Virus record (IMG/VR): IMGVR_UViG_3300044643_000906
Span: 1 to 61,753 of that record
DNA: 61,753 nt
Strand: one strand, 5' to 3'
DNA from: a virus
Lineage: Duplodnaviria > Caudoviricetes
Shown: positions 5,338 through 52,952 of the stretch, one piece after another
Position numbering within the stretch: position 1 is the stretch's first letter
How the letters are laid out: each line of letters opens with the position of its first letter
Position numbers and translations under genes: made by a program
Notes under the pieces: model-generated
What the model saw: only the letters and a program-made list of their open reading frames with translations
The model's database searches: none
Told to the model about the DNA's origin: nothing

Positions 5338-5658
5338 TTATGGCTTCGCCCCCGGCTGCTGGATTTTCCACCCCCTCCGGGTGCCCGGCTGGCAGTGGGT
5401 CAGCAGGTCGGCCCGCATTCGATCCTCGTCCACACCCAGTGCCTCGCAGCACTCACCGAAACTGAGTGCTCCACCACCGTCCATCCAGCCGCGGGCCACC
5501 TCCCGCTGACGCTGGACTTCTCGGATGAACGGACGCATCTCACGGCTGCTGTGGTTACGCGGCCTCTCTGCCAGAGCGTAGGCCGTGCTCACTAGCAGGC
5601 TGCCGCACAGTCGGCGGTAGCCACCCTCGATCTCATCGGCGGTCAAGTTATTCAACAT
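5338..5658 (-). CDS. Hypothetical protein
   Basis: 106-aa ORF inside a tightly packed - strand operon. Confidence 0.65.
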   Translation of the reverse strand: MLNNLTADEIEGGYRRLCGSLLVSTAYALAERPRNHSSREMRPFIREVQRQREVARGWMDGGGALSFGECCEALGVDEDRMRADLLTHCQPGTRRGWKIQQPGAKP

Positions 5659-6028
5659 CGCTCGGCACCTCCCCGTCCTTGGGAATCTTGCAACCGGCCT
5701 GACGCAGGTCGGTATTCAAATGGGGCCACAGTTCCTCGGAGTGCATCGAGAAGCACAGGTTCCAAGCAGCGTGACTGAGGTGATCCTCCGAGCGATCCCC
5801 CTCCAAGTAGCTATAGATGTGCGACAAGGCGTGGTTCAGGAACACCGAGATCGGCAGCCCCCTCTCCACGTTCAGAGCACCGTACTTCTCGGCACCCTCG
5901 TGGCTGGCCTGCGCCATCCGACGCAGCCCGATGGGCGACAGCAGTTCGAATCTCACGTCCTTCGCACTGCGCTTGGCACCAGAGCGGAACGTCGCCACTC
6001 CGCTCGTCACTTGCGGTTTACCCCACAT
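5648..6028 (-). CDS. dATP/dGTP diphosphohydrolase domain protein (DUF5664-like)
   Basis: F.SGAKR...RFELLSP.GLRRMA....GAEKYG..N.E.G......HAL.H...YL.GD.SEDHL.HAAWN. Confidence 0.82.
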   Translation of the reverse strand: MWGKPQVTSGVATFRSGAKRSAKDVRFELLSPIGLRRMAQASHEGAEKYGALNVERGLPISVFLNHALSHIYSYLEGDRSEDHLSHAAWNLCFSMHSEELWPHLNTDLRQAGCKIPKDGEVPSDVE

Positions 6029-6524
6029 GCTTACTCTCCTTGGTTAATGACCACTCTCTTGCATCCGACATATCAACAAATGCGTTAGCTCGGGTTGCCT
6101 TGCCACCATTGACGGTGGCCTGCGTCTCTGTCTGATCCACTCGCAGCTTGCAGCAGTACTGCCCAGAGGGGTCAGCGATCAGCTTGGTGAGGAGCAACTG
6201 CTCGTCCACGAGGTAGAGGAATCCGTAGAGGGGGACAGCCAGCAGTCGGGCTGCCTCTCTCCCCTCGTCCAGCTTCTCCATCGTGACCAGCCACTCGTCA
6301 TTCCACCCCTGACGCAGGGCATTCCTCGACAGCTTGTACCGGCACTTGGTTTCCACGACCGCGACGATCTCGCCAGACGGGCCGACAACCACGGCATCCA
6401 CCTTTGCAGGCTGATCCTTCGGCGTGCCCACATACCGGCAGCCAGTGGCCTTCTCAAAGATGGCAGCTGCTGCCTGCTCATCCCGTGCGGTCTGCTGCCC
6501 CTTGGGCGTGAGGATGTCCATCAC
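6018..6524 (-). CDS. Hypothetical PD-(D/E)XK-like protein
   Basis: VDA...VETKCR pattern. Coupled to neighbouring genes. Confidence 0.6.
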   Translation of the reverse strand: MMDILTPKGQQTARDEQAAAAIFEKATGCRYVGTPKDQPAKVDAVVVGPSGEIVAVVETKCRYKLSRNALRQGWNDEWLVTMEKLDEGREAARLLAVPLYGFLYLVDEQLLLTKLIADPSGQYCCKLRVDQTETQATVNGGKATRANAFVDMSDAREWSLTKESKHVG

Positions 6525-6892
6525 TTCACCTCATGTGCCGGGCCGGTCGAGCGCCTTGCCATGCCCCTCTGCATCCGCTCGATGAACGTGTGCAAATCCT
6601 TCATGCGTACCGTGACCAGCCACTCGCTGCCGTTCTTGCGATGGCAGATCATCGGCGTCTTCAGGTGCGGTGCCGCATCGAGCACTGCCTTTGCCATGGC
6701 CTCCTCGATGTTCAGCCGCTGCACCCTCTTGCACTCCACGAGCACGCCCGGGAGTTCCTCCACCAACAGATCGCTGGTTGCATCCGCACCGGAGTACTGC
6801 TGCGAGCGCCTCGCTGTGTACCCCATCGAGCGGAAGCACTCGGCTAGTTCGCGCTCGCCAGCTGCTCCCTTGGCTCGGCTATTGATGGTCAT
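6521..6892 (-). CDS. Holliday junction resolvase-like PD-(D/E)XK nuclease
   Basis: NSRAKGAAGERE...ARRSQQY...SD...VECKR...HRKNG.EW. Confidence 0.8.
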   Translation of the reverse strand: MTINSRAKGAAGERELAECFRSMGYTARRSQQYSGADATSDLLVEELPGVLVECKRVQRLNIEEAMAKAVLDAAPHLKTPMICHRKNGSEWLVTVRMKDLHTFIERMQRGMARRSTGPAHEVK

Positions 6893-7241
6893 TGTCTTCT
6901 CGCTCCTTGATTGCCCAGCTGGGCAGGGGTTGTGGGTCACACGGGAGGGCACGACGATGTCGAAGGCCAGCCAAGTACTCGATGTCCACTTCACCGTCTT
7001 CCTCCTGCTTGGCTGTGATGATCTGGCAGATGTCTAGGTTCTTCTTGCCACCCGAATGGAACCCGTAGTGGCACTCGTTACACAGGAGGATCAGACCTCG
7101 ATGATCGTGCGGATCTTTTCCGCGGCGTCCTTGGATGTGGTGAATCTCCATCCTTCTGCCCGGCCGATACTTCCGGTAGTGACACACGGCACATCGGTCG
7201 TGGCTGAAGGCGTAGTCTTCCAGCTGCTTACTCTTCCCCAT
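6879..7241 (-). CDS. HNH endonuclease (Zn-binding)
   Basis: CAVC...EIHHI...LLCNECH..H. Confidence 0.75.
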   Translation of the reverse strand: MGKSKQLEDYAFSHDRCAVCHYRKYRPGRRMEIHHIQGRRGKDPHDHRGLILLCNECHYGFHSGGKKNLDICQIITAKQEEDGEVDIEYLAGLRHRRALPCDPQPLPSWAIKEREDNDHQ

Positions 7242-8084: not shown

Positions 8085-8398
8085 CAGAACTCCTCCATCT
8101 CGGTGTCGGTCGCCAGCTGCATGGAGGCAGCCACCAGCCACTGAGCGAGGGCGTAGACTTGGTCGGGGTCGGTGAAGGTAAAGCCACCGTAGAGCGAGAG
8201 ACGCACGCATGGGCGGTCAGTCGGACGAGCCACGTCCAGCATCTGTGCGTCACGCTGACTGATCTCGCCACCGTCTGGCAGAAGGTCTTCAATCGCCAGA
8301 GAGTCGAACACGCTGTGCCTCTCGCCATTGCGGTAGACCGCGGTCATCACCGCTTGGCCTTCGCCCCTCACCACGCACATAGCCTCGTGATCAACCAT
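8084..8398 (-). CDS. Hypothetical protein
   Basis: 104-aa ORF coupled to the helicase gene. Confidence 0.6.
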   Translation of the reverse strand: MVDHEAMCVVRGEGQAVMTAVYRNGERHSVFDSLAIEDLLPDGGEISQRDAQMLDVARPTDRPCVRLSLYGGFTFTDPDQVYALAQWLVAASMQLATDTEMEEF

Positions 8399-9944
8399 GA
8401 GACAGCCCTTTCTCTAGCTCGCGCTTGATCGCCTTCACCAGCCACTCGTTGCCCGGCGTCCTCTTCATCCCGCGGACGATGCGTTCCAGTTCCTTGCGGG
8501 GGATGAGCCGGATCGGCTCTCCCTTGAACGGGCCCCACAGCATGCGTGCCTCACGCCTCTTCGGGCTGGCCGCGGTGGGCTTGGCGAATGGGTCGGATGA
8601 GGTGGCGTCGAACGTGATCCCCACCACCAGCTGGCGGCGGCGGTGACGCTCGGCCTCCTGCTCGGCCCGGGCCCGCTCGACCTCCAGCTTCTCCTCAGCT
8701 GCTGCCATGGCGTCGATGTCCTCGACCTTGATCTCGCCTTCCTCGGCGGCAGCCAACAGCTTCTCTCTGTACTTCTTCACCTTCGGGCTCGGGGCCATGA
8801 TGTCGATGGACGAGCACAACTTGTGGAAGCGATGCGTGTCGGTGTAGTCCACGATGGTGGCGTATGGCTTGCTGCTCTTACTGATAGCCAGCTTGCGCAG
8901 GTAGTCAGTCGGCTGGCTGTCAACGGCGGCGTCAGCAGCTGGCCGCAGGATGCGACCGCAGATTTGCATATAGCGTTGGAGTGAGAATGTGGGCCGCAGG
9001 ATATGAACCTCGGCTGCCCTCTGGCTGTCCCACCCAGCCACGAGCGTGGCGACGTTAACCACCATGTCCACCTTGCCCGATTCGAAAGCCTTCATCTCCT
9101 CGGCCTTCTCGCTCAGTGGCATCTTGGAATGGACAAGGCTGGCAGTGATGCCATACCGGGCGATCATGTGCCTGAAGTCGGTGGCATGTGGGATCGAGGA
9201 ACAGAACACAGCAGCTGGCCGGGAGTGGTTCGCTGCCACCATGGCACACTGCTCGTGCAGTGGTCGTTCCTCACGCAGGATTTCACCGGCGCTCTTGCCA
9301 TCGAAGTCGGCCATGCCGTGCCGGATGTCGCCGTAGTCCACCCCCTTCAGGACAACACGCTTGCCGCGGATCGTAACCAGCCAGCCGTGGTCGATGGCCG
9401 GGGCCACGCCGTACTGGATAGGGCAGCGTCCGTAGTAGTCGAGGATGCTAGTGCCGTCGGCACGAGCGTGAGGCGTTGCTGTCAGCCCCACGACCTTCGC
9501 ACCCATGGCCGAGTAGTAATCAAGCAACTCGCGAGTCTTCTCCCCCAGACCCCAGTGGGCCTCGTCCACCATGACCAGATCGGGAGTGAACCGACGGCCA
9601 CGATCCCCGATGGTCAGGGTCTGGAGGGAGCCGACGACACAGTGCTGATCAACGTCGGCCCAGTTGTCGGACTGCTCGATGCCAACATCATGCAGCAGCC
9701 ACTTCTCCATGGAGCGTGCGATCTGGTGGACGAGGTTCACCTGCGGGTCGATGACCAACACTTTCTTGTAGCTATCGGCCAGCATCGCCATGATCAAAGA
9801 CTTGCCCAGCCCCGTCGCCGCCTCGACCACCATGCGGTCGTGAGTCCGCAGGTGATCGAGGACGGCGTTCACGATGGCCGTCTGGATCGGCCGGGGCCGT
9901 GGCCTCGGGTCGTTGAACAGATCGAGCGTGCCGTGCTGGGCCAT
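8391..9944 (-). CDS. SF2 DEAH-box helicase (Res III-like)
   Basis: PRPIQ Q-motif, ATGLGKS, DEAH, TATP, GWD, QICGRILR. Confidence 0.92.
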   Translation of the reverse strand: MAQHGTLDLFNDPRPRPRPIQTAIVNAVLDHLRTHDRMVVEAATGLGKSLIMAMLADSYKKVLVIDPQVNLVHQIARSMEKWLLHDVGIEQSDNWADVDQHCVVGSLQTLTIGDRGRRFTPDLVMVDEAHWGLGEKTRELLDYYSAMGAKVVGLTATPHARADGTSILDYYGRCPIQYGVAPAIDHGWLVTIRGKRVVLKGVDYGDIRHGMADFDGKSAGEILREERPLHEQCAMVAANHSRPAAVFCSSIPHATDFRHMIARYGITASLVHSKMPLSEKAEEMKAFESGKVDMVVNVATLVAGWDSQRAAEVHILRPTFSLQRYMQICGRILRPAADAAVDSQPTDYLRKLAISKSSKPYATIVDYTDTHRFHKLCSSIDIMAPSPKVKKYREKLLAAAEEGEIKVEDIDAMAAAEEKLEVERARAEQEAERHRRRQLVVGITFDATSSDPFAKPTAASPKRREARMLWGPFKGEPIRLIPRKELERIVRGMKRTPGNEWLVKAIKRELEKGLSHG

Positions 9945-10249
9945 CAGGCAACCCTCCCCGGCACCAACACCTTGGTCGGGCAGCGACGAATGCCGATCCT
10001 ACCCACCCACCTGCGGCTCGTTTCCTCCACGCTCCACCCCGCCTGAATCTCCGCGCACCTTGCGGCGATTTCCTCTGGGGTTGGATCGACGTTGCCCTTG
10101 ACGACCCTTACTGTTCGCAGCAGGTTTGCGAACCGGAGGTGCTTGTACACGAGGCTGTAGTGCAGGCCCGCCCTCATCGCCGTGTTCTTCAGCGTCTCGC
10201 CCTTCTGGTAGATCGCCACTGCCTTCTTCAACTTGTCGCTCGTGCTCAT
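9944..10249 (-). CDS. Small HTH-like protein
   Basis: TLKNTAMRAGLHYSLVYKHL followed by DPTPEEIAARCAEIQAGWS. Confidence 0.55.
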   Translation of the reverse strand: MSTSDKLKKAVAIYQKGETLKNTAMRAGLHYSLVYKHLRFANLLRTVRVVKGNVDPTPEEIAARCAEIQAGWSVEETSRRWVGRIGIRRCPTKVLVPGRVA

Positions 10250-10415
10250 CTGCTGGTACTCCTTGCAGAAACTTGGTTACGAAACACATTGCTTGCAGGG
10301 CCCTGACCTCCTCCAAGAGGGCAGGAACATCGACGTTTACGATCTGAGGCATGTTCTCCAGAAACAGGTTGCTGGCCCGCTCCTCGATATCTGCCAGCTG
10401 ACGATCACTCAGCAC
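9999..10415 (-). CDS. Hypothetical protein (3' part overlaps the next gene)
   Basis: GTG start with RBS GGAGG. N-terminal DVPALLEEVRAL helix. Confidence 0.45.
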   Translation of the reverse strand: MLSDRQLADIEERASNLFLENMPQIVNVDVPALLEEVRALQAMCFVTKFLQGVPADEHERQVEEGSGDLPEGRDAEEHGDEGGPALQPRVQAPPVRKPAANSKGRQGQRRSNPRGNRRKVRGDSGGVERGGNEPQVGG

Positions 10416-11076
10416 GCTTCACCTCCGCTATCGGGGCCATGGCTTCCCGCTCCTCCTTCAGCGAGAGCATCTGCTCCTCACTCATCCGGCCAGCTGCAAC
10501 TGAGAGGGCAGCCTTAGCGAGCACGGTGTTGCGATCCTGCTCGGTGCGTGCGTTACGCAGTGCCTGACGTGCCATGCCCACCACCGGGTTCACGGCGGGA
10601 GGGGCGGCGCTCTTCAGGTTGGCACCGTCGAGGTCGCTCTCAGCCGCGATCCCGCAGAGGCAGGCGTAGTCGTTGCGGCGGAAGTACGTCGTCCACGCCA
10701 GCTTGTCCTGCGGCTTGGAGCGGTTGTAGTTCAGCACACTGAACGAGCGTTCGAACTGACCGCTGACGTGACGCAGAGTGGAGACGAGCCATTCCTGATC
10801 CCCGATGATGATGGTCTTCGATGAGAGGTCGAGCCCGTACTTGGGCAGCGACTCACACACCGCATCGATCACCTCGTCAAGCGTGGCGTAGGGGCCAAAG
10901 TTCCCCTTGGCGTTCTTGTGAATCTTCTTGATCTCCGGCCGGGCCTTGCACTTCGCAGCACACAGCAGGTCGGTGAACTCGCTCTCTGCTGCCGGGAGCA
11001 TGGAGGTCTGCCCCTTGAGACGCGGGTCGCGGATTGGTTGGACGGGGACGATATCGAGAACTTCTTGATCAGCCAT
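10405..11076 (-). CDS. erf: ERF-family single-strand annealing protein
   Basis: KNAKGNFG.YATLDEVIDAV...L.KYGL...LRHVSGQ...TY.RR...GIAAESDLDG. Lies downstream of the exonuclease. Confidence 0.8.
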   Translation of the reverse strand: MADQEVLDIVPVQPIRDPRLKGQTSMLPAAESEFTDLLCAAKCKARPEIKKIHKNAKGNFGPYATLDEVIDAVCESLPKYGLDLSSKTIIIGDQEWLVSTLRHVSGQFERSFSVLNYNRSKPQDKLAWTTYFRRNDYACLCGIAAESDLDGANLKSAAPPAVNPVVGMARQALRNARTEQDRNTVLAKAALSVAAGRMSEEQMLSLKEEREAMAPIAEVKRAE

Positions 11077-11602
11077 TGACGCTCTCCTTCTGCTGGTGAA
11101 ACAACTCCCACGAACGTGTCTCTTCCTGTGCCATCTCGGACGCCTTCGCCTGCTGGTAGGCAGCGCCTGCCTCCTCGGCGGTCGCGAAGTACCCGAGATA
11201 CTTCCGACGGCCATGCACGTTGATGACCACCCGGTACGGCTTGTCTCGCTCGATGCTGTCGTAGAGACGCATGTCCTCGACGCCCGCGGGCAAGTGAGCA
11301 CGGTCGGCTAGACGACGCCTGCTGTTGCGATTGCGGATGTTCAACGAGCCCGTGGCCGGGCGAAGGTTGGTGAGGCGGCAGTCCCACTTCACGCCGTTGA
11401 TGTGATCCAGCTGGGCAGCTGAGTTCTCGTGGACGAGAGCCCAGATGAATCGGTGCAGCAGCACCATGCGGTCGTTGATGCGGGTCTGGAGATAGCCCTT
11501 GGCGTGTCTGCACCAGCTGTGCTTGGACACTTCCTCCGCGAACTGCTCGTCCACGAAGAACACCGGGTTGATGCGACCCTGACGATTGAGCCTTCCGATC
11601 AT
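11069..11602 (-). CDS. HNH homing endonuclease with C-terminal AP2 domain
   Basis: LHRFI...DHING.K.D.R..NLR, then Y...I...G...YLGYF.T.EEA..AY. Confidence 0.88.
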   Translation of the reverse strand: MIGRLNRQGRINPVFFVDEQFAEEVSKHSWCRHAKGYLQTRINDRMVLLHRFIWALVHENSAAQLDHINGVKWDCRLTNLRPATGSLNIRNRNSRRRLADRAHLPAGVEDMRLYDSIERDKPYRVVINVHGRRKYLGYFATAEEAGAAYQQAKASEMAQEETRSWELFHQQKESVNG

Positions 11603-12531
11603 GAGTGGAACCTCCGCAGCAGGTAATCGGGCACAGCCAACTCGTGGACTTCCCCGTATCCGGCGGGGAGCCAGTTGTCTGTCTCGGTGCGGATGGCGAT
11701 CTCATCGAGGTCGCGTGTGATCATGTCGTGGCACATGTCCACGACAGGGGCCGGGAGAGTGACGGCCTGCACCTGATAGCTGGGGGTAGTCGAGAGGACG
11801 ATGAACGTCATCGGCCGGTCGGAGATGCCAGCCTCGATTGCACCGCTGCCGTAGAGGGCGGCTTGGTAGTGGTAGCCGTGCTCTATCGCTGGCCCGATCC
11901 ACGACTCCAGAGGGCGAGCCTCGCGGCTCGTCTTCCAATCGATCAGCCTGCCATCACGGGTGACAGCATCGAACCGGCAGCGGAGACGGTGGCCGTCCTC
12001 CCGCTCCCATACCACCGAGAGTTCGTGCTCCTCAATGGACTCGATGATCTCGCGGACAGCGGCGTTGTCCTGAGCCTGCTTCCACAGGCCGGTGATCACG
12101 GCGTCGTCTGCCGGGGTCAGGAGGATGGCGTCCTTGGGCTGGTCGGCCAGCCACGCCCGTGCTTCCTTACCTGAGCTAAGTGTCCCGGTGGCGGTGCAGA
12201 ACTTCTCGGGAACGAGCACTGCCCGACGGCGGAATTCAGGCTCGCCTAGTTCGAAGACTAGGTGGACAAGCGTCCCTCTTGCGAGGGAGTCCGACGCGAA
12301 CGGAGGATGGGAGCGAGCAACGAACTGCTCGTAGTACCACACCGGGCCGTGTCTGCGAAAAGCCCACAGGGGGCTCTTCGACGGCACCGGAAGACTATGG
12401 TACTGGTCGTTAGGCAACCCTCTCAGGACGAGCGGGTAACCAAAAGAAAGCGCGGCTATCTCTTCTGCGAGTGCGCTACGTCCCGAACGTAGCGCTCTAC
12501 CAGACTGAGCTACGCCCCGATCTGGGTGCAT
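11599..12531 (-). CDS. RecE-like PD-(D/E)XK exonuclease (DUF3799-like); start uncertain
   Basis: PNDQYH...SKS...GTLVH...E.SV.W...RCRFD...IDWKTS...YHYQAALY. Possible starts are ATG 12531 (AGGA upstream), a TTG downstream of the tRNA half, or further upstream. Confidence 0.85.
   Translation of the reverse strand: MHPDRGVAQSGRALRSGRSALAEEIAALSFGYPLVLRGLPNDQYHSLPVPSKSPLWAFRRHGPVWYYEQFVARSHPPFASDSLARGTLVHLVFELGEPEFRRRAVLVPEKFCTATGTLSSGKEARAWLADQPKDAILLTPADDAVITGLWKQAQDNAAVREIIESIEEHELSVVWEREDGHRLRCRFDAVTRDGRLIDWKTSREARPLESWIGPAIEHGYHYQAALYGSGAIEAGISDRPMTFIVLSTTPSYQVQAVTLPAPVVDMCHDMITRDLDEIAIRTETDNWLPAGYGEVHELAVPDYLLRRFHS
12476..12519 (-). other. 5' half of tRNA-Pro(CGG), candidate attP core
   Basis: CGGGGCG TA GCTC AGTCTGGTA GAGC G CTACG TTCGGGA CGTAG gives the acceptor 5' strand, D arm and a complete anticodon arm. 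No T arm or 3' acceptor strand follows. About 215 bp from the integrase start. Confidence 0.85.
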
Positions 12532-12557
12532 TATGGCTTCCTGCTCGATTTCCGCAA
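12530..12557 (-). promoter_or_regulatory. Sigma70-like promoter TTGCGG-N16-CATAAT in front of the tRNA half
   Basis: The -10 hexamer ends about 10 nt upstream of tRNA position 1. Confidence 0.55.
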
Positions 12558-12704
12558 CGTCATTCTTCGACGGCGATGATTGTGACGACATTCTGAATTC
12601 CTTGAATTCCTCAGACAGTGGAAGCGGCCCCTTGAAAGGGGGAAACCGGGGGGTTGTTGGTTCCTTCGCAGTGAGTACTCTCTCCACCACTGGCAAGGAT
12701 GTTG

Positions 12705-12718
12705 TGGACGGTTGTACA
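12705..12718. promoter_or_regulatory. Palindromic operator-like box TGGAC-GGTT-GTACA overlapping a possible -10 (TACAGT) of the integrase
   Basis: Immediately upstream of the integrase RBS AAGGAG (12721). Confidence 0.5.
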
Positions 12719-12733
12719 GTAAGGAGCGGATCG

Positions 12734-13579
12734 ATGATAGGGGTCGCTGAAGGGTTTCTTTTGGGTCGAGACGTTAGCTCTGGTTACGCAAGCAACGTCC
12801 GACGAACGGCACGCAAGATGGCGGCGGCGGGAATCACCGCGGCGAACATCGATGGGCCTGTCGTGAACATGTGGCTCTCCTCCTTGACAACCAGTTCAAC
12901 CACCAAAGCATCCGAGCTTTGCACCGCCCTCACCCTGTGGCGCTGGGGCATCGAGGAAGGCGTGATCGTGAATCCCATCAGGCGAGTCAAGAAGATTCGC
13001 AAGACGAGGAAAGTCGTTCGTGCCTTCACTCGCAGCGATCTTACCATGGCTGTCAAGTTTTTCTCAGATGAGAGTTTCGTCCGAGAAAACCATGTGTTTC
13101 AGAAATCCCTGTGTCCAGTGTCCCTTTGGATGGAGGCGTGGACGAGGTTCTGTTATGAGACTGCGGCACGCATGGGTGACGCACACTCACTCCGTGCGGA
13201 AGCACTCGTTCCCGGCGGCGTGGCGTTCGTGGCATCGAAGACCGGGCAGCCGGTGGTCAGGCGGGTGAGCCCGCGAACCAGCGAGCTATTGCAGAAGTTG
13301 GCCGACATGTCACCCGATGGCACGGTGTTCAGCTGGGCAGTGAGTAGGCGATGGGCGTTCGCCAACATCAAGCGGTACTTCGAAATGGCTGGCCTGAAGG
13401 GTGGACGCTCACAGTGGCTGCGCCGTGCAGCCGCCACGCACGCAGAGATGATGCAGGAGGGGGCGGGCTCCAAGCTGCTCGATCACCGTGGCTCTGGTGG
13501 GCCCGAGCTAACCCGCCAGCACTACCTTGATATGAGCCAGCTAATGGAGAGATTGCCGTCTGGCCCGATGCTGGATTGA
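12734..13579 (+). CDS. int: Tyrosine recombinase/integrase
   Basis: Catalytic pattern R (TAARMGD), K (SKTG), WLRR (HxxR variant), LLDH and Y (TRQHY). ATG at 12734 after AAGGAG. Confidence 0.85.
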   Translation: MIGVAEGFLLGRDVSSGYASNVRRTARKMAAAGITAANIDGPVVNMWLSSLTTSSTTKASELCTALTLWRWGIEEGVIVNPIRRVKKIRKTRKVVRAFTRSDLTMAVKFFSDESFVRENHVFQKSLCPVSLWMEAWTRFCYETAARMGDAHSLRAEALVPGGVAFVASKTGQPVVRRVSPRTSELLQKLADMSPDGTVFSWAVSRRWAFANIKRYFEMAGLKGGRSQWLRRAAATHAEMMQEGAGSKLLDHRGSGGPELTRQHYLDMSQLMERLPSGPMLD

Positions 13580-14005
13580 GTTTCGGAATACTCGCTTGCG
13601 TGGCACCAGAAGGGCGCTACAACCGTAGGTGTCGCGGTAGGACTGATGGGCCGCGATCATCGGTGTGCGTGCCATTAGCGGAGGGCCAGCCCAATAAGCT
13701 GGCGAGACGGGAGCCTGACCCACGCATAAGCCCCAGCCCAAAGTCGAGGGGGCAAGTCAGGGTGGCGGTGCCATCGCCACACAGCAGCGACTAGTCACAG
13801 CGGATCGTCACCCGACTGTGGCCGCATGAAACGACGCGGATACCTCAAGAGGCAGCCGGGATCGAGTGCGACAGGGACTCCCTGACAGTGCCCTCAAGGG
13901 TAGGTCAGGAGAGTATCCCTGCGCACTCACTCAGCGTTTCCTAAGAGGCAACTCCGGTGCAGGGGAGACAGTGTTGCAGCTGATAAGAGACTGATAGCAA
14001 AGAGG
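13580..14005 (+). ncRNA. Candidate structured non-coding RNA or origin region
   Basis: No convincing ORF. At least eight stems found by eye, including the 65-nt compound hairpin 13864-13928. Strand is inferred only. Confidence 0.5.
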
Positions 14006-14007
14006 GA

Positions 14008-17000
14008 CTAGAGCCCGAATCGAGCAGCCCTCTTGGCTGCGTCCTTCTTCTGCTTGGCCTCGGCTTGGTTCTTCTTCTGGAGGGCCTGCCGTAGTTCGTA
14101 GTACTGCCTCATTTCAGGCGGCAGCTGCTCGACCTCTTCCTTCGGGATGCTCGTCGTTTCGAACCCCTTCGCCCCCGGGTAGCGCTCGATCTCGGCGTTC
14201 AACTGTCGCAGTGCATCGGCCCTCTGACGCTTCTCATCGATGACCCGCAGCTTGACCGGGCTGAAGGTGTTGAACAGCAGCGTCGAGGCACGGGATGCCA
14301 TAGGTGTGCGTTGGTCGGCCAGCTGGCGACCAGCACTGAGCAGTCGGCCCTGCCCCGGGAAGAGCATGTCGGCACCAGACTGCACCATGGACGGCAGGCG
14401 GAAGTCCTCGTTGCCGGTCCATGCACCGACGATGGTGTCGATCTCGCTGGGCACCTCACCGAGCTTGCGCTTCGTGAACATGTCACGCTGCGTGGCTGCC
14501 TCGATCAGTGTCTTCGGCAGAGGCCCCAGCTGCTGTGCGTAGTTCTGGATCGTGGAGATCATGCTGGCGTTGGGATCGAACTTGCCGCCGGTCTTCGCTA
14601 TCGACACGCGGTTCAACGCGGACAGACCGGGCAGGTCGATGTTGGTGACGGCACGACGCAGGCCGGGGCCGGGCTCTGCCACGTTGCCTAGCCCGAGCGC
14701 TTCGGTCGCAGCACCGAGTTCCTTGGGGAGCAGGAAGCCCGATTGCTCACGCAACGTCTGAGGTACATAGGTGTCGTCGTCTGATTGCTGCGCCTTATCA
14801 GCAACCTTCAGCATCTGGGTGTACGCACCGCCGGGCTTCGACGCCATCTTCTCTGCGGCGTACTTCAGGATGCGGCTCTCATAGGCATAGAAGGGCATCC
14901 ACTTCCTGATCGTCTTCTCGACCTCGGAGAGATTCCCATAGTCAACGTGGGCCGCGATCATGCGGCGCGCCGCTTCCTTCGGGGCGAAACCTTTCTGAAG
15001 CAATGCCATGTAACCACCCATGCGATTGACGCTGTCAGTCCAATCGCCCAGCTTCTCGCCGGTCTTGTACAAGGGGTTCGTGGTGTCTTTGTTTCCGAGC
15101 ACGCCCTTCACGCCGAACGGATTGACGGCCTGCTTGGCAAACTGCCCGTAGGTGCGAGATGGATCGCCAGCGAATGAGCCCGCGATGGACTGCGGCTTGA
15201 ACCCGGGCAGCAGTTCCTTCACTGCTTCGGCCGTGCGGTCGGCGTTAGTGCGATCAATGATTGCACCACCCTTGAGGATGCCTGCCTCTGCGGTGTCAGC
15301 GAGGAACTTGCTAATCAGCTGATCGTCGGACAGCCCAGCCTTAGATGCTGCGGCGTATAGGGGCATCTTCTTGATGTAAGGTAGTACCTTGTCATACTGA
15401 CCATTTAGTAACTTGGCTGCGTGGTATCCGCCCTTCACCGCTTCGGGGCCAGCCTCGATTACATTAGATATAAAGCCGCTAGTAAGATCGCGTGTATACC
15501 TACTCGGCCATGTTAATACACCGGCCTTAAACATCTTCGTGTACTGTTCCACGAGATTGCCGATCTCGCTCACTGCCTTCGGAGCAGCGAACACATCGTG
15601 CATTCGCGTCAGCTGGTTGAGTGTCTCAAGCGGGATCGAGTACTGCGACAGGTCAATCTCGTCGGCGGTGATCCGGCCCTCCGCTCCCTGAAGGCCGGAG
15701 TCGCCCAGTACTTCTGCCATGCGGCTGCGTAGTTCGGCGGCTGCTCCACCGCGAACCTTCGTGCCGTCAGCCAGCACGGTCTTCGGAGACTTCAGTCCAG
15801 CCTTCTGTAGTGCGGAGAGGGCCGAGATGTGCTTGCCGCCTTCCACTTGACCCGGTGTCTGATTGACCAGACGAGAGGCGATGGTGTTGATGAGTTCGTC
15901 TGCGGTGCCGATGGCACGCTTACGTCCGTAGACATATCGGGTGGTGGCTTCCAGCGGGTGGTTGCCGAATACGGGCGAGATGTCTCCGGCGTCTGGCACC
16001 TCAATCTGGTTGAGGAACCGCGCTAGCTGGCGTGCCTTCGCCTTGGAGTATCCCGCCGCGGGAACCGCAGCTGCCTTCTTAGCCGCAGCCGTTGACATTG
16101 CGCCGGATGACCAAGCTGCCGACAAAGCCGCCCGATCCGCAGCCGACTGAGCAGCGGCCTTGCCGACCGGAGAGTCAGCCATCGCCGCATAGTATTTATG
16201 GCTCGGGTCGTTGATGGCTTCGTACAGCTTCTGGGCAACCTCGTCTTCCTTGAATGCATCCCCGAGCCCAACGAAGTCTCTGTCCTGAGAGAACTTCCGC
16301 AGCTGGTCGATTCCGCCGGGCAGCTGGAGAGCCTTCGACCGAGCGAGCATGTCGCCCGTGACGGTGTCGAACAGTGCAGGCTGCCGCGACTTCTTGCCCA
16401 CGACCCGGTCGAGGACGTGCTCTAGCTGGTACGGTCGGTAGCCAGCACCATAGTTGTGCTGCAACTGGTGGGCACGCAGGCCCATCGCCTCGGACTCAGT
16501 GAGAATCTTCGGGGCGAGGTGCCCCCAGCGATCAACGAATGCCCGCACCCCCGGTGTGTTCTCAACGAAGTCGATGTCGGCTGCCGTGGCGGCGTTCTTC
16601 TCAAGGTAGCGGTCGATTGCCTCGCCCGCCTTGGCTGACATAACGTCGTCAATGCCTGTCCTCGATGCGACAGCAGGGTCGATCTTCGCCACCCGCAGCA
16701 TGTCGGCCATCTCTGCCGCCTCACGCCGCCCCTTCGCCTCGCTGATGTCAGCGGTCTGGTTGATTCTGAGTGCTGCCGCCTGAGCCGCGGCGTCTGTCTG
16801 CCCGCCTGCTGCCTTGTTGAACATGGCGTGGGCGTACAGACCGGGCGTAGACCATCGGATGGACTCTCCAAAACGGTCAGCACCACGAGCGAGTGCTTCG
16901 CCAGCAGCAGCACCGAGCGGATCACCGACGATTGAAGCGGAACCGAACCCAAGACCGAACGACTTGCCCAGCGTCTGGTCTTTCACCTGATCGTAGGTCA

Positions 17001-52688: not shown

Positions 52689-52915
52689 TTCATGGACAAC
52701 CGCAGTTCCTTCCGGCGAGCGTCCAATTTTGATCGCTCCGATTGTAGCCGCGACATCCGCTTTTCGTTAGTTTGCACAAGGATGCACGCCATCGCTTGGT
52801 CTAGCCAACAAATGCCGCGATCCAATTGCGCAAGCCGCTTTCGGCAAGACTTTTCAATTGAGAGGCCGCGACTCGAACGCGGGCCTTTGGCGTTCCTGCC
52901 AATGTGCTGCACCAC
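52670..52915 (-). CDS. Hypothetical protein
   Basis: 81 aa, fills the operon gap. Confidence 0.4.
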   Translation of the reverse strand: MVQHIGRNAKGPRSSRGLSIEKSCRKRLAQLDRGICWLDQAMACILVQTNEKRMSRLQSERSKLDARRKELRLSMKCRGSK

Positions 52916-52952
52916 CTACACCACCCCTCATAAATACATTGCTTCTGTCAGT

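What the first reader, a model, noticed from the sequence alone, without database searches (positions are those of the whole stretch)
12476..12557. Candidate attP made of a promoter plus the 5' half of tRNA-Pro(CGG), lying in frame inside the exonuclease ORF
Seen: a 44-nt tRNA 5' half ending exactly at the end of the anticodon stem, a TTGCGG-N16-CATAAT promoter just upstream, and a divergent tyrosine integrase about 215 bp away. The same bases are read as RGVAQSGRALRSGRS in the open frame of the RecE-like gene. Known: most tRNA-targeting phages carry the 3' portion of the tRNA; 5'-end targeting is rarer and requires the phage to supply a promoter. Inference: integration would restore the host tRNA under the phage promoter while cutting the exonuclease-ERF-helicase arm off from its promoter and possibly its start codon. 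Integration itself would then be the lysis/lysogeny switch.
Basis: partly seen in the sequence, partly recalled or inferred. Interest (0 to 1): 0.82.

Follow-up and report, generated by a model that had tools for sequence, protein, structure and literature searches.

The report
Phage attachment site carrying tRNA-Pro front half
A lake-water phage appears to insert into a bacterial proline tRNA gene while carrying the front half of that gene plus its own promoter, the mirror image of the usual arrangement, and close relatives with the same integrase carry the back half instead.

Summary
Minus strand 12519..12476 is the first 44 nt of a tRNA-Pro(CGG). It ends at the 3' end of the anticodon stem and is identical (45 nt with base -1) to a tRNA gene in one Alphaproteobacteria MAG. 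It lies 215 bp from a divergent tyrosine integrase and inside the open frame of a RecE-like exonuclease.

Ten related contigs with integrases 52-75% identical all carry the same 17-nt anticodon stem-loop at the same place and in the same orientation. Two, like the window, extend it with the tRNA 5' half preceded by a conserved TTGC..-N16/17-CA.AAT motif. Eight extend it 3'-wards, the usual type (one is cut 7 nt past the core).

This is therefore very probably attP, with crossover in the anticodon loop. The intact tRNA would be rebuilt at the integrase-side junction.

The exonuclease frame is open through the tRNA piece in 9 of 9 loci, in two different phases. Integration would therefore split that gene from its start codon.

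Not shown: promoter activity, any attL/attR junction, the host, or a lysis/lysogeny switch role.

Elements carrying a 5' tRNA fragment are rare but known (159 of 3919 Islander islands). I call this a new variant of a known kind.

The parts
12476..12519 (-). 5' half of tRNA-Pro(CGG), positions 1-44 (acceptor 5' strand, D arm, whole anticodon stem-loop)
   Evidence: Read; unique in the window; Rfam tRNA alignment; exact match to the tRNA gene of L002.
12476..12492 (-). 17-nt core (anticodon stem-loop) shared by the host tRNA and all related attP regions; the 7-nt loop is the proposed crossover (overlap) region
   Evidence: Invariant columns in alignment A4 of host plus 8 phage loci; present in all 11 contigs examined. 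That the crossover lies in the loop is inference.
12464..12504 (.). Extended imperfect inverted repeat (18-nt arms, 83% complementary, 5 nt apart) centred on the anticodon loop; candidate pair of core-type integrase sites
   Evidence: the repeat finder I1. L004 shows only an 11-nt, 82% repeat at this place, and no repeat at the core was reported for L005, so the extension is window-specific.
12530..12557 (-). Promoter-like TTGCGG-N16-CATAAT, ending 10 nt before tRNA +1, lying inside the exonuclease leader codons
   Evidence: It is the best sigma-70-like match between integrase and core in the window, L004 and L006, at 37-42 nt before the core. Not listed by the tool scan. Function is inferred.
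11599..12591 (-). RecE-like (exonuclease VIII, PD-(D/E)XK) gene, 330 aa if started at ATG 12591 (AAGGA 7 nt upstream); alternative in-frame ATG at 12532
   Evidence: Homology to phrog_412 starts at residue 53 (E 1.6e-38). No ATG/GTG/TTG lies between the tRNA piece and residue 53.
12734..13579 (+). Tyrosine integrase, 281 aa, core-binding plus catalytic domains; the whole protein is covered by lambda Int residues 75-356
   Evidence: phrog_1 E 1.3e-13. PF00589 matched in 26 of 33 family members at E <= 0.01, the window's own protein below the Pfam cut-off. AlphaFold model pLDDT 89.8. Foldseek top hits are lambda Int 75-356, E about 1e-8, TMq 0.63-0.67.
12592..12733 (.). Integrase-exonuclease intergenic region: conserved CTGTACA motif (12712-12719) and a tandem 9-nt repeat (12594-12611); presumed divergent promoters
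   Evidence: Roles are inferred.
8391..11602 (-). Genes downstream of the exonuclease on the same strand: HNH endonuclease (11069-11602), Erf-like annealing protein (within 10405-11301), helicase (8391-9944)
   Evidence: PHROG hits. A RusA-like resolvase lies further on at 6521-6994.

Best explanation
The stretch is the attP of a temperate phage. Its small tyrosine integrase (12734-13579) recombines at the anticodon stem-loop of a bacterial tRNA-Pro(CGG) gene.

Unlike most tRNA-targeting elements, this phage carries the 5' part of the gene, from base +1 to the end of the anticodon stem, preceded by its own promoter-like motif. After a crossover in the 7-nt anticodon loop, two junctions would result:
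- The integrase-side junction would read phage promoter, phage 5' half, host 3' half, host terminator. That is an intact tRNA gene.
- The other junction would join the host promoter and the displaced host 5' half to the body of the RecE-like gene.

Because the core lies inside the N-terminal leader of that gene, integration separates the exonuclease, and the HNH, Erf and helicase genes behind it, from the exonuclease start codon and from the phage's own upstream promoter.

Shown: the tRNA half, the host match, the integrase fold, the shared core in relatives, and the open frame.
Inferred: crossover position, promoter activity (my odds about 0.6), tRNA rebuilding, and any regulatory effect of the split (about 0.2 that it acts as a real control step).
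For: 1. There is a 45-nt exact identity to a full tRNA-Pro(CGG) gene, starting at the gene's first base and ending at the anticodon stem.

2. All 11 contigs whose integrase is 52-100% identical and whose upstream DNA is held carry the same 17-nt core between the integrase and the RecE-like gene, in the same orientation.
- Three extend it 5'-wards: the window, L003 and L006.
- Eight extend it 3'-wards: L005, L007, L008, L016, L017, L018, L019 and L020. L008 is cut 7 nt after the core.
- The 3' extensions run to ..CGCCCCGA, with compensatory T-stem differences between phages.

3. The integrase is a tyrosine recombinase by profile and by fold. R146, K169, R230 and Y264 are invariant and H251 is at least 90% conserved in 33 sequences.

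4. In all three 5'-type phages the best sigma-70-like match sits 10-14 nt before tRNA +1 (8, 8 and 9 of 12). Both hexamers are identical between the window and L004, while their spacers agree at 8 of 16 positions (my own count on the output). No 3'-type locus has its best match there. The Ile codon inside the -10 box is ATA, which makes up 52 of 583 Ile codons in the window's long ORFs.

5. The exonuclease frame is open through the tRNA piece in 9 of 9 loci, with the core in phase 0 in five and phase 2 in four. ATG starts lie upstream of the core in all nine. The other two frames hold 1-6 stops over the same span.

6. In run X20 the phage contigs stop at 12505 and restart at 12492. A 46-nt contig covering 12476-12521 without mismatch has depth 75.7 against 13-15 for the phage. 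This fits an exact repeat shared with more abundant DNA in the same lake.
Against: - No attL or attR junction was found.
- No integrase relative turned up in 401 genomes of the MAG's class or 237 of its family. Two weak hits came from 301 genomes of its order.
- No contig in four lake runs demonstrably joins a phage arm to host DNA.
- The only genome with the exact 44-mer has 52% G+C over 8 kb against 61.5% for the phage, so it may not be the host.
- The promoter motif is weak (8 of 12) and was not called by the scan tool.
- The frame relative to the promoter is the same in the three 5'-type phages, so coding constraint could explain part of its conservation.
- In 6 of 9 loci a canonical start also exists between the core and the conserved LPN motif, so a downstream start is not excluded there.
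Confidence: 0.72

Rival explanations
1. It is attP, but the promoter-like motif is not a working promoter. The 5' half is kept only as homology and binding context for the integrase, and lysogens live without this tRNA or read CCG with another tRNA-Pro.
For: The motif matches the consensus at 8 of 12 and the scan tool lists nothing. Its conservation could come from the codons it overlaps. L002 has a second tRNA-Pro(GGG) 88 nt upstream.
Against: Identity begins at tRNA +1 and covers the D arm and acceptor strand, far beyond what a 7-nt overlap with flanking core sites needs. Three phages with integrases 60-63% identical keep the half intact and keep both hexamers at the same distance. 3'-type relatives likewise keep a complete 3' half.
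Confidence: 0.15
2. The overlap with the exonuclease ORF is accidental. The gene starts downstream of the tRNA piece and the long open frame is a by-product of 61% G+C.
For: Six of 9 loci have an ATG, GTG or TTG between the core and the LPN motif, for example ATG at +66/+69 in L016/L018. The leader is poorly conserved as protein.
Against: The frame is open in 9 of 9 loci despite a phase change inside the tRNA piece. The other two frames hold 1-6 stops. L004 and L006 have no canonical start within 110 nt after the core. In the window the first one (TTG at +75) lies inside the region homologous to exonuclease VIII, which starts at residue 53.
Confidence: 0.1
3. The piece is a dead remnant of host DNA picked up by faulty excision, or a tRNA-like RNA gene of the phage itself, and the real attP lies elsewhere.
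For: Rfam can align a full-length 'tRNA' over 12423-12519 by using CGTCCTGA as a 3' acceptor strand (28.9 bits). ARAGORN calls a 92-nt tRNA-Pro in L003 and a 69-nt one in L018.
Against: Those calls lack a T arm. ARAGORN and Rfam at gathering score find no tRNA here in the window. The 17-nt core sits beside the integrase in all 11 contigs, whichever half accompanies it, which a random relic would not do.
Confidence: 0.04

Closest known systems
Genomic islands and prophages that carry a 5' tDNA fragment (Islander class; Zhao and Williams 2002)
   Same: The element replaces the 5' part of a tRNA gene instead of the 3' part. Islander Table 1 counts 159 islands with a 5' fragment against 3760 with a 3' fragment (PMC4383910, passages). 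[quoted passage not shown]
   Different: I could not read Zhao and Williams 2002 (not held), so details of that element are recalled only. Here the site is seen in the free phage form, lies inside a protein-coding leader, and sits in an integrase clade that also holds 3'-type sites at the same crossover point.
Klebsiella islands of type arg2A-VII, which integrate upstream of the tRNA gene
   Same: Islands reported to integrate upstream of the target tDNA 'in contrast to all other' islands (preprint 10.1101/2020.11.02.365908, passage).
   Different: That paper names the D-loop as the sublocation. Here the inner end of the identity block is the anticodon stem-loop. No promoter or ORF overlap appears in the passages I saw.
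Anticodon-loop class of tRNA integration sites (Williams 2002)
   Same: The identity block starts at the symmetric anticodon stem-loop, with the 7-nt loop as the likely overlap region. Islander counts 2083 anticodon-centred sites.
   Different: Williams 2002 itself was not held. [quoted passage not shown]
Integration-dependent immunity of mycobacteriophages BPs and Brujita
   Same: attP lies inside an open reading frame, so integration changes what the gene encodes (PMC4557955 and PMC3694055, search-listing abstracts; PMC10865867 introduction). Brujita integrase is among the fold matches.
   Different: There the gene is the repressor, and as I recall integration removes a C-terminal degradation tag. 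Here the gene is a RecE-like exonuclease and its N-terminal start is removed. No immunity role is shown.
tRNA-dependent lysogeny (Guerrero-Bustamante and Hatfull 2024)
   Same: A tyrosine integrase targets a tRNA gene and the phage must deal with the disrupted tRNA (PMC10865867, abstract and introduction).
   Different: Those phages share only about 10 bp with attB and carry a separate whole tRNA gene. This phage shares 45 nt and has no whole tRNA-Pro gene.
SSV and Mx8: attP inside the integrase gene
   Same: An att site embedded in a coding sequence that integration splits (Islander paper, passage).
   Different: The split gene there is the integrase itself.

Membership tests
tRNA-targeting integrative element (attP with a tDNA identity block) | A tyrosine integrase gene lies next to the site | tested here: met
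   Integrase starts 215 bp away on the opposite strand. Profile and fold evidence.
tRNA-targeting integrative element (attP with a tDNA identity block) | A block identical to a host tRNA gene that reaches one end of the gene | tested here: met
   45 nt exact, from base -1/+1 to the end of the anticodon stem, against L002. This was the only one of the species-representative genomes scanned with an exact 44-mer.
tRNA-targeting integrative element (attP with a tDNA identity block) | The inner end of the block lies at a symmetric sublocation (anticodon or T stem-loop) | tested here: met
   The block ends at the anticodon stem. The 17-nt stem-loop is the only part shared by 5'-type and 3'-type relatives.
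tRNA-targeting integrative element (attP with a tDNA identity block) | attL and attR junctions in a lysogen, with a displaced tDNA fragment | tested here: inconclusive
   No integrase relative in 401 (class) or 237 (family) genomes and 2 weak hits in 301 (order). No junction contig in 4 runs. All 8 metagenome and 8 viral loci are attP forms or cut.
Elements carrying the 5' tDNA fragment | The element-borne fragment is the 5' part of the tRNA gene | tested here: met
Elements carrying the 5' tDNA fragment | The element supplies a working promoter for the rebuilt gene | tested here: inconclusive
   A conserved TTGC..-N16/17-CA.AAT lies 10-14 nt before +1 in 3 of 3 5'-type phages. It is below the scan tool's threshold, and there are no transcript data.
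Tyrosine recombinase | Catalytic Arg, Lys, His-x-x-Arg, His/Trp and Tyr residues, and the fold | tested here: met
   R146, K169, R230 and Y264 are invariant and H251 is at least 90% conserved in 33 sequences. R146 and K169 lie in the stretch aligned to integrase 5c6k. The fold matches lambda Int 75-356. The first His of H-x-x-R appears to be Q227; assigning these residues to catalytic roles is my own reading.
Integration-dependent immunity | attP lies inside the repressor gene | tested here: not met
   The ORF that holds the core is an exonuclease VIII / PD-(D/E)XK protein.
tRNA-dependent lysogeny | Short common core (about 10 bp) and a separate phage tRNA gene of the same isotype | tested here: not met
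   The identity is 45 nt. ARAGORN finds only one odd 'tRNA-???' at 52858-52930, and Rfam finds none at gathering score.

The most novel reading that the evidence does not exclude
Within one integrase clade, the half of the tRNA gene that the phage carries has flipped at least twice around a fixed crossover point.

In every member the att core is kept inside the translated leader of the first early gene. Integration therefore beheads that gene and places the recombination operon behind the host tRNA promoter as an untranslated RNA. That RNA might be stopped by the hairpin plus U-rich tract that the truncated tRNA forms with the phage arm, or by polarity.

This would be an integration-dependent gate on early genes, distinct from integration-dependent immunity, together with a promoter written into coding sequence to drive the rebuilt tRNA.
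Probability: 0.2. Interest if true: 0.75.

Novelty: new variant of a known kind. Interest (0 to 1): 0.58.

Why it matters
Nearly all tRNA-targeting phages and islands carry the 3' part of the gene. The usual explanation is that carrying the 5' part would also require a promoter. This phage group offers a natural side-by-side comparison: one integrase family and one crossover site, with some members carrying the 5' half plus a promoter-like motif and others carrying the 3' half.

It makes three things testable:
- how an identity block changes sides;
- whether a promoter embedded in codons really drives the rebuilt tRNA;
- whether splitting the first early gene at integration has a regulatory role.

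The integrase is also small, with the core-binding and catalytic domains and no arm-binding domain, and its site appears compact. That may interest people who build integration tools.

Tried and rejected
**Searches for relatives and lysogens**
- Close relatives among cultured phages: megablast of 11000-14000 gave no match, and tblastn of the integrase gave no match at E <= 1e-3. The 46-nt site gave only whole tRNA-Pro genes at 95% identity or less. The full L002 tRNA gave 873 records; all 25 rows listed are whole tRNA-Pro genes or unannotated records at 82-86% identity. One record with a short match at >= 99% was not among the rows shown and was not followed.
- Prophage search: a single-protein scan of viral contigs found nothing. 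The L002 genome has no integrase relative. Class: 0 of 401. Order: 2 of 301, weak (E 2e-5 and 6.5e-4) and taken as unrelated integrases. Family: 0 of 237.

**Lake metagenomes**
- Contigs bridge the core as attP in X2 (record 1, which may be the source sample) and in X24 (record 27).
- Many short, deep contigs over 12476-12522 with 1-4 mismatches are other tRNA-Pro genes.
- Nothing joined a phage arm to host DNA, so these runs give no verdict on integration.
- My reading of the X20 contig ends as a 46-nt exact repeat assumes assembly with words of 31, which is recalled.

**Host**
- L002 is the only exact match, but its G+C is 9 points below the phage's.
- In its family 13 of 237 genomes have the 44-mer with 3 or fewer mismatches, and only this genome has it exactly.
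- I therefore do not name a host.

**Promoter origin**
- Host tRNA-Pro(CGG) genes of that family have TTGACA-N16-TATTGT-like promoters 17-19 nt upstream (my reading). These show no clear likeness to the phage motif, so capture from such a host is not shown.

**Hairpin and terminator idea**
- The tRNA half pairs with the phage arm and is followed by CTTTCTTTT.
- Against shuffles of the downstream arm: window z = -2.0 (22 of 500), L004 z = -2.3 (12 of 500), L006 z = -0.2 (190 of 500).
- This is suggestive only, and the scan tool calls no terminator there.

**Rejected readings**
- The pseudo-tRNA calls were rejected as whole tRNAs because they lack a T arm.

- Searches for a 5'-half attP with a promoter found nothing specific.
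- Williams 2002 and Zhao and Williams 2002 are not held.
- Supplementary files were not opened, and lists of 5'-fragment islands there may bear on novelty.
Full report
**What the window is.** The window is a complete 61,753-bp virus record with direct terminal repeats and about 61% G+C. It is found in at least 24 lake or freshwater metagenome runs. No cultured phage in the phage collection resembles it, either at the DNA level around the site or through its integrase.

**The observation.**
- On the minus strand, 12519..12476 reads as acceptor 5' strand, D arm, anticodon stem, loop TTCGGGA (anticodon CGG) and the returning stem strand, 44 nt in all.
- The 44-mer is unique in the window and absent from 100 shuffles.
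- Rfam's tRNA model aligns these 44 positions at full posterior probability. The hit as a whole is 28.9 bits against a gathering score of 29, because there is no T arm.
- ARAGORN and Rfam at gathering score call no tRNA here.
- TTGCGG (12557..12552), 16 nt, then CATAAT (12535..12530) precede the piece, with 10 nt between the second hexamer and tRNA +1.
- The integrase ATG at 12734 follows AAGGAG and lies 215 bp from tRNA +1.
- The frame of ORF 11599..12696(-) reads the piece as RGVAQSGRALRSGRS.

**A matching tRNA gene exists.**
- A scan of one genome per prokaryote species found the exact 44-mer once. It is in an Alphaproteobacteria MAG (L002), where it is the 5' part of a 77-nt tRNA-Pro(CGG) lying 88 nt behind a tRNA-Pro(GGG).
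- Exact identity runs from base -1 to the last base of the anticodon stem (45 nt) and stops there.
- In that MAG's family, 13 of 237 genomes hold the 44-mer with at most 3 mismatches, and only this genome holds it exactly.
- Its G+C is 52% over 8 kb, against 61.5% for the phage, so I do not claim it as the host.
- In run X20 the phage contigs end at 12505 and restart at 12492. A 46-nt contig covering 12476-12521 without mismatch has depth 75.7, against 13-15 for the phage.
- That pattern fits an exact 46-nt repeat shared with more abundant DNA in the same water. This DNA could be a host tRNA gene, related phages, or both.

**Relatives settle what the piece is.**
- The integrase has 39 homologues in metagenome proteins.
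- Scans with alignments of them returned 8 metagenome loci and 8 viral loci.
- Counting distinct contigs whose integrase is at least 52% identical and whose upstream DNA is held, there are 11: the window, L003 (also fetched as L004 and L015), L005, L006, L007, L008, L016, L017, L018, L019 and L020.
- L009 and L012 lack the upstream DNA. L010, L011 and L021 (38% identity) have no tRNA piece. L022 (29%, partial) is unrelated.
- All 11 carry the same 17-nt anticodon stem-loop between the integrase and a RecE-like gene, reading in the direction of that gene.
- Three carry the tRNA 5' half in front of it: the window, L003 and L006.
- Eight have unrelated sequence in front and the tRNA 3' part behind it, down to ..CGCCCCGA: L005, L007, L016, L017, L018, L019, L020, and L008, which is cut 7 nt after the core.
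- The 3' parts differ between phages by compensatory T-stem changes. This looks like real tRNAs of different hosts (the pairing is my reading).
- The only stretch common to both kinds and to the bacterial gene is the stem-loop. This is what one expects of a tyrosine-recombinase core, with the 7-nt loop as overlap region. The crossover position itself is inferred.

**The integrase.**
- 26 of 33 family members match Pfam Phage_integrase at E <= 0.01. The window's own protein scores 19.3 bits, below the cut-off of 27.1.
- It matches phrog_1 at E 1.3e-13.
- R146, K169, R230 and Y264 are invariant.
- An AlphaFold model (pLDDT 89.8) matches lambda integrase residues 75-356 best (E about 1e-8, TMq 0.63-0.67), then XerA, XerH, Cre and Brujita integrase.
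- The 281-residue protein thus covers the core-binding and catalytic domains, and I see no separate arm-binding domain.
- In the window, the sequence after the stem extends the natural 5-bp stem into an 18-nt, 83% inverted repeat. L004 lacks that extension, so I treat it as a feature of this phage only.

**Consequences of the geometry (inference).**
- With the tRNA direction equal to the exonuclease direction, a crossover in the loop gives two junctions.
- On the exonuclease side: host promoter, host 5' half, core, exonuclease body.
- On the integrase side: phage leader, core, host 3' half.
- In 3'-type relatives the whole tRNA is rebuilt on the exonuclease side under the host promoter, which is the usual solution.
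- In the window it is rebuilt on the integrase side, 60 kb from the host promoter, so a phage-borne promoter is needed.

**The promoter-like motif.**
- In all three 5'-type phages the best sigma-70-like match between integrase and core sits 37-42 nt before the core, which is 10-14 nt before tRNA +1. The matches are TTGCGG-16-CATAAT in the window and L004, and TTGCCA-17-CACAAT in L006.
- Between the window and L004 both hexamers are identical, while the spacer agrees at 8 of 16 positions (my count).
- No 3'-type locus has its best match at that place.
- The Ile codon inside the second hexamer is ATA, a rare choice here: 52 of 583 Ile codons in ORFs of at least 250 aa.
- Against this, the match is only 8 of 12 and the scan tool lists no promoter. 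The reading frame over the motif is also the same in the three phages, so codon constraint may contribute.
- I put promoter function at about 0.6.

**The overlap with the exonuclease gene.**
- The ORF is a RecE-like nuclease: DUF3799/PDDEXK_1 and phrog_412 exonuclease VIII at E 1.6e-38, from residue 53 of the 330-aa form.
- In the window no ATG, GTG or TTG lies between the tRNA piece and residue 53. The first candidate (TTG at +75) is inside the homologous region.
- Two in-frame ATGs lie upstream: 12591, with AAGGA 7 nt before it, and 12532, which overlaps the -10 hexamer.
- Across 9 loci (L008 is cut, and L017 was left out because its stretch is identical to L016) the exonuclease frame is open through the core in 9 of 9. 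ATGs lie upstream of the core in all nine.
- The core is read in phase 0 in five loci and in phase 2 in four.
- The other two frames hold 1-6 stops over the same 39-61 codons.
- Frame restoration on both sides of the piece argues that translation really runs through it.
- Six of the 9 loci also offer a start between the core and the conserved LPN motif, so in those a shorter protein remains possible.

**What integration would split off.**
- Behind the exonuclease on the same strand lie an HNH endonuclease, an Erf-like annealing protein, a helicase and a RusA-like resolvase.
- Integration would therefore cut this arm from the exonuclease start codon and from whatever promoter lies in the 142-bp intergenic region.

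**The 'switch' idea.**
- It is not established. The split is shared by 3'-type relatives, so it does not depend on the 5' arrangement.
- After integration the arm is not promoterless. It follows the host tRNA promoter, and bacterial tRNA-Pro(CGG) genes of the L002 family show TTGACA-N16-TATTGT-like promoters and downstream terminators (my reading).
- Two things might limit read-through. One is loss of translation of the first gene. The other is a long hairpin that the tRNA half forms with the phage arm, followed by CTTTCTTTT.
- Against shuffles of the downstream arm this pairing is marginal in the window (22 of 500) and L004 (12 of 500), and absent in L006 (190 of 500).
- I keep this as a hypothesis at about 0.2.

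**Evolution of the two types.**
- On an integrase tree of 12 rows, the window pairs with L005, a 3'-type (support 100/99). L004 and L006, both 5'-type, pair with each other (97/94), and the four form a clade (97/98).
- The sister clade is all 3'-type, L019 (3'-type) branches below, and L010/L021 lie outside.
- The tree was built without L009, L011, L012, L017 and L022. The drawing is midpoint-rooted, and the L010 branch is long.
- Taken at face value, this needs at least two changes of type, or exchange of the attP segment between phages.
- The promoter motifs of the window and L004 look homologous, which favours one origin of the 5' type followed by a return in the L005 line. A route through an intermediate carrying a whole tRNA gene is my speculation, and no such member was found.

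**What is known.**
- 5'-side integration is rare but on record. Islander lists 159 islands with a 5' tDNA fragment against 3760 with a 3' fragment, and 2083 anticodon-centred sites (PMC4383910, passages).
- A Klebsiella preprint reports islands inserted upstream of arg2 (passage).
- att sites inside genes are known for SSV and Mx8 integrases and for repressors in integration-dependent immunity.
- tRNA-dependent lysogeny is a different solution and does not fit here.
- My searches found no description of a 5'-half attP with an embedded promoter inside an exonuclease leader, nor of both polarities within one integrase clade.
- Williams 2002 and Zhao and Williams 2002 could not be read, and supplements were closed.

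**Verdict.** Promoter function is plausible but unproven. The lysis/lysogeny switch claim is not supported by anything obtained here. I class this as a new variant of a known, rare kind.

Noticed in passing
window 52858-52930 (-): ARAGORN calls a 73-nt 'tRNA-???' with a two-base anticodon. Rfam finds no tRNA at gathering score anywhere in the window. It is probably spurious or a degenerate tRNA-like element.
   Followed up: partly
window 11069-11602 (-); L003 5564: An HNH endonuclease ORF sits between the exonuclease and the Erf-like gene in the window. In L003 a 222-aa ORF (5564-6232, not scanned against any family library) follows the exonuclease stop directly. The HNH gene may be a mobile insertion.
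   Followed up: no
window 12712-12719; L007, L008, L016, L018, L019, L020 upstream of the exonuclease ATG: A CTGTACA motif is conserved in the integrase-exonuclease spacer of every locus. In 3'-type phages it forms TGTACA-N16-(C/G)AG(A/C)AT followed 4 nt later by the exonuclease ATG, which would give a nearly leaderless mRNA (my reading).
   Followed up: partly
L016 2772-2802; L018 equivalent: A perfect 11-bp hairpin with a 9-nt loop lies shortly after the phage-borne tRNA 3' end, inside the exonuclease leader. It could stop read-through from the rebuilt tRNA in lysogens.
   Followed up: partly
L005 2211-2246; similar in L004, L006 and window about 12410-12440: An inverted repeat overlaps the conserved codons VG.PLI..G.PN at the start of exonuclease homology (15-nt arms, 80% complementary, in L005; a second hairpin in the window's fold). 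It may be a binding site or an RNA hairpin. The other loci were judged by eye only.
   Followed up: partly
window 12521 joined to 13214 in run X20: One 1085-nt contig (depth 46) joins the start of the tRNA half directly to the middle of an L003-like integrase gene, skipping 692 nt, with 30 letters on the shorter side. It could be a deleted prophage remnant or an assembly join, and remains unexplained.
   Followed up: no
window 12594-12611: A tandem 9-nt repeat TGAATTCCT x2, each copy with an EcoRI-like palindrome, lies 2 nt upstream of the exonuclease ATG and overlaps its ribosome-binding site.
   Followed up: no
window 13580-14007: About 430 bp without a long ORF lie between the integrase stop and the end of a 1239-aa ORF that has no PHROG match. 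A terminator-like hairpin sits at 14024-14040.
   Followed up: no
L003 4649-4740; L018 2823-2891; window 12423-12519: tRNA finders stretch the half-tRNAs into odd full-length calls of 92 nt, 69 nt and 97 nt by pairing the acceptor strand with nearby coding sequence. Automatic annotation of such phages may list false tRNA-Pro genes.
   Followed up: yes
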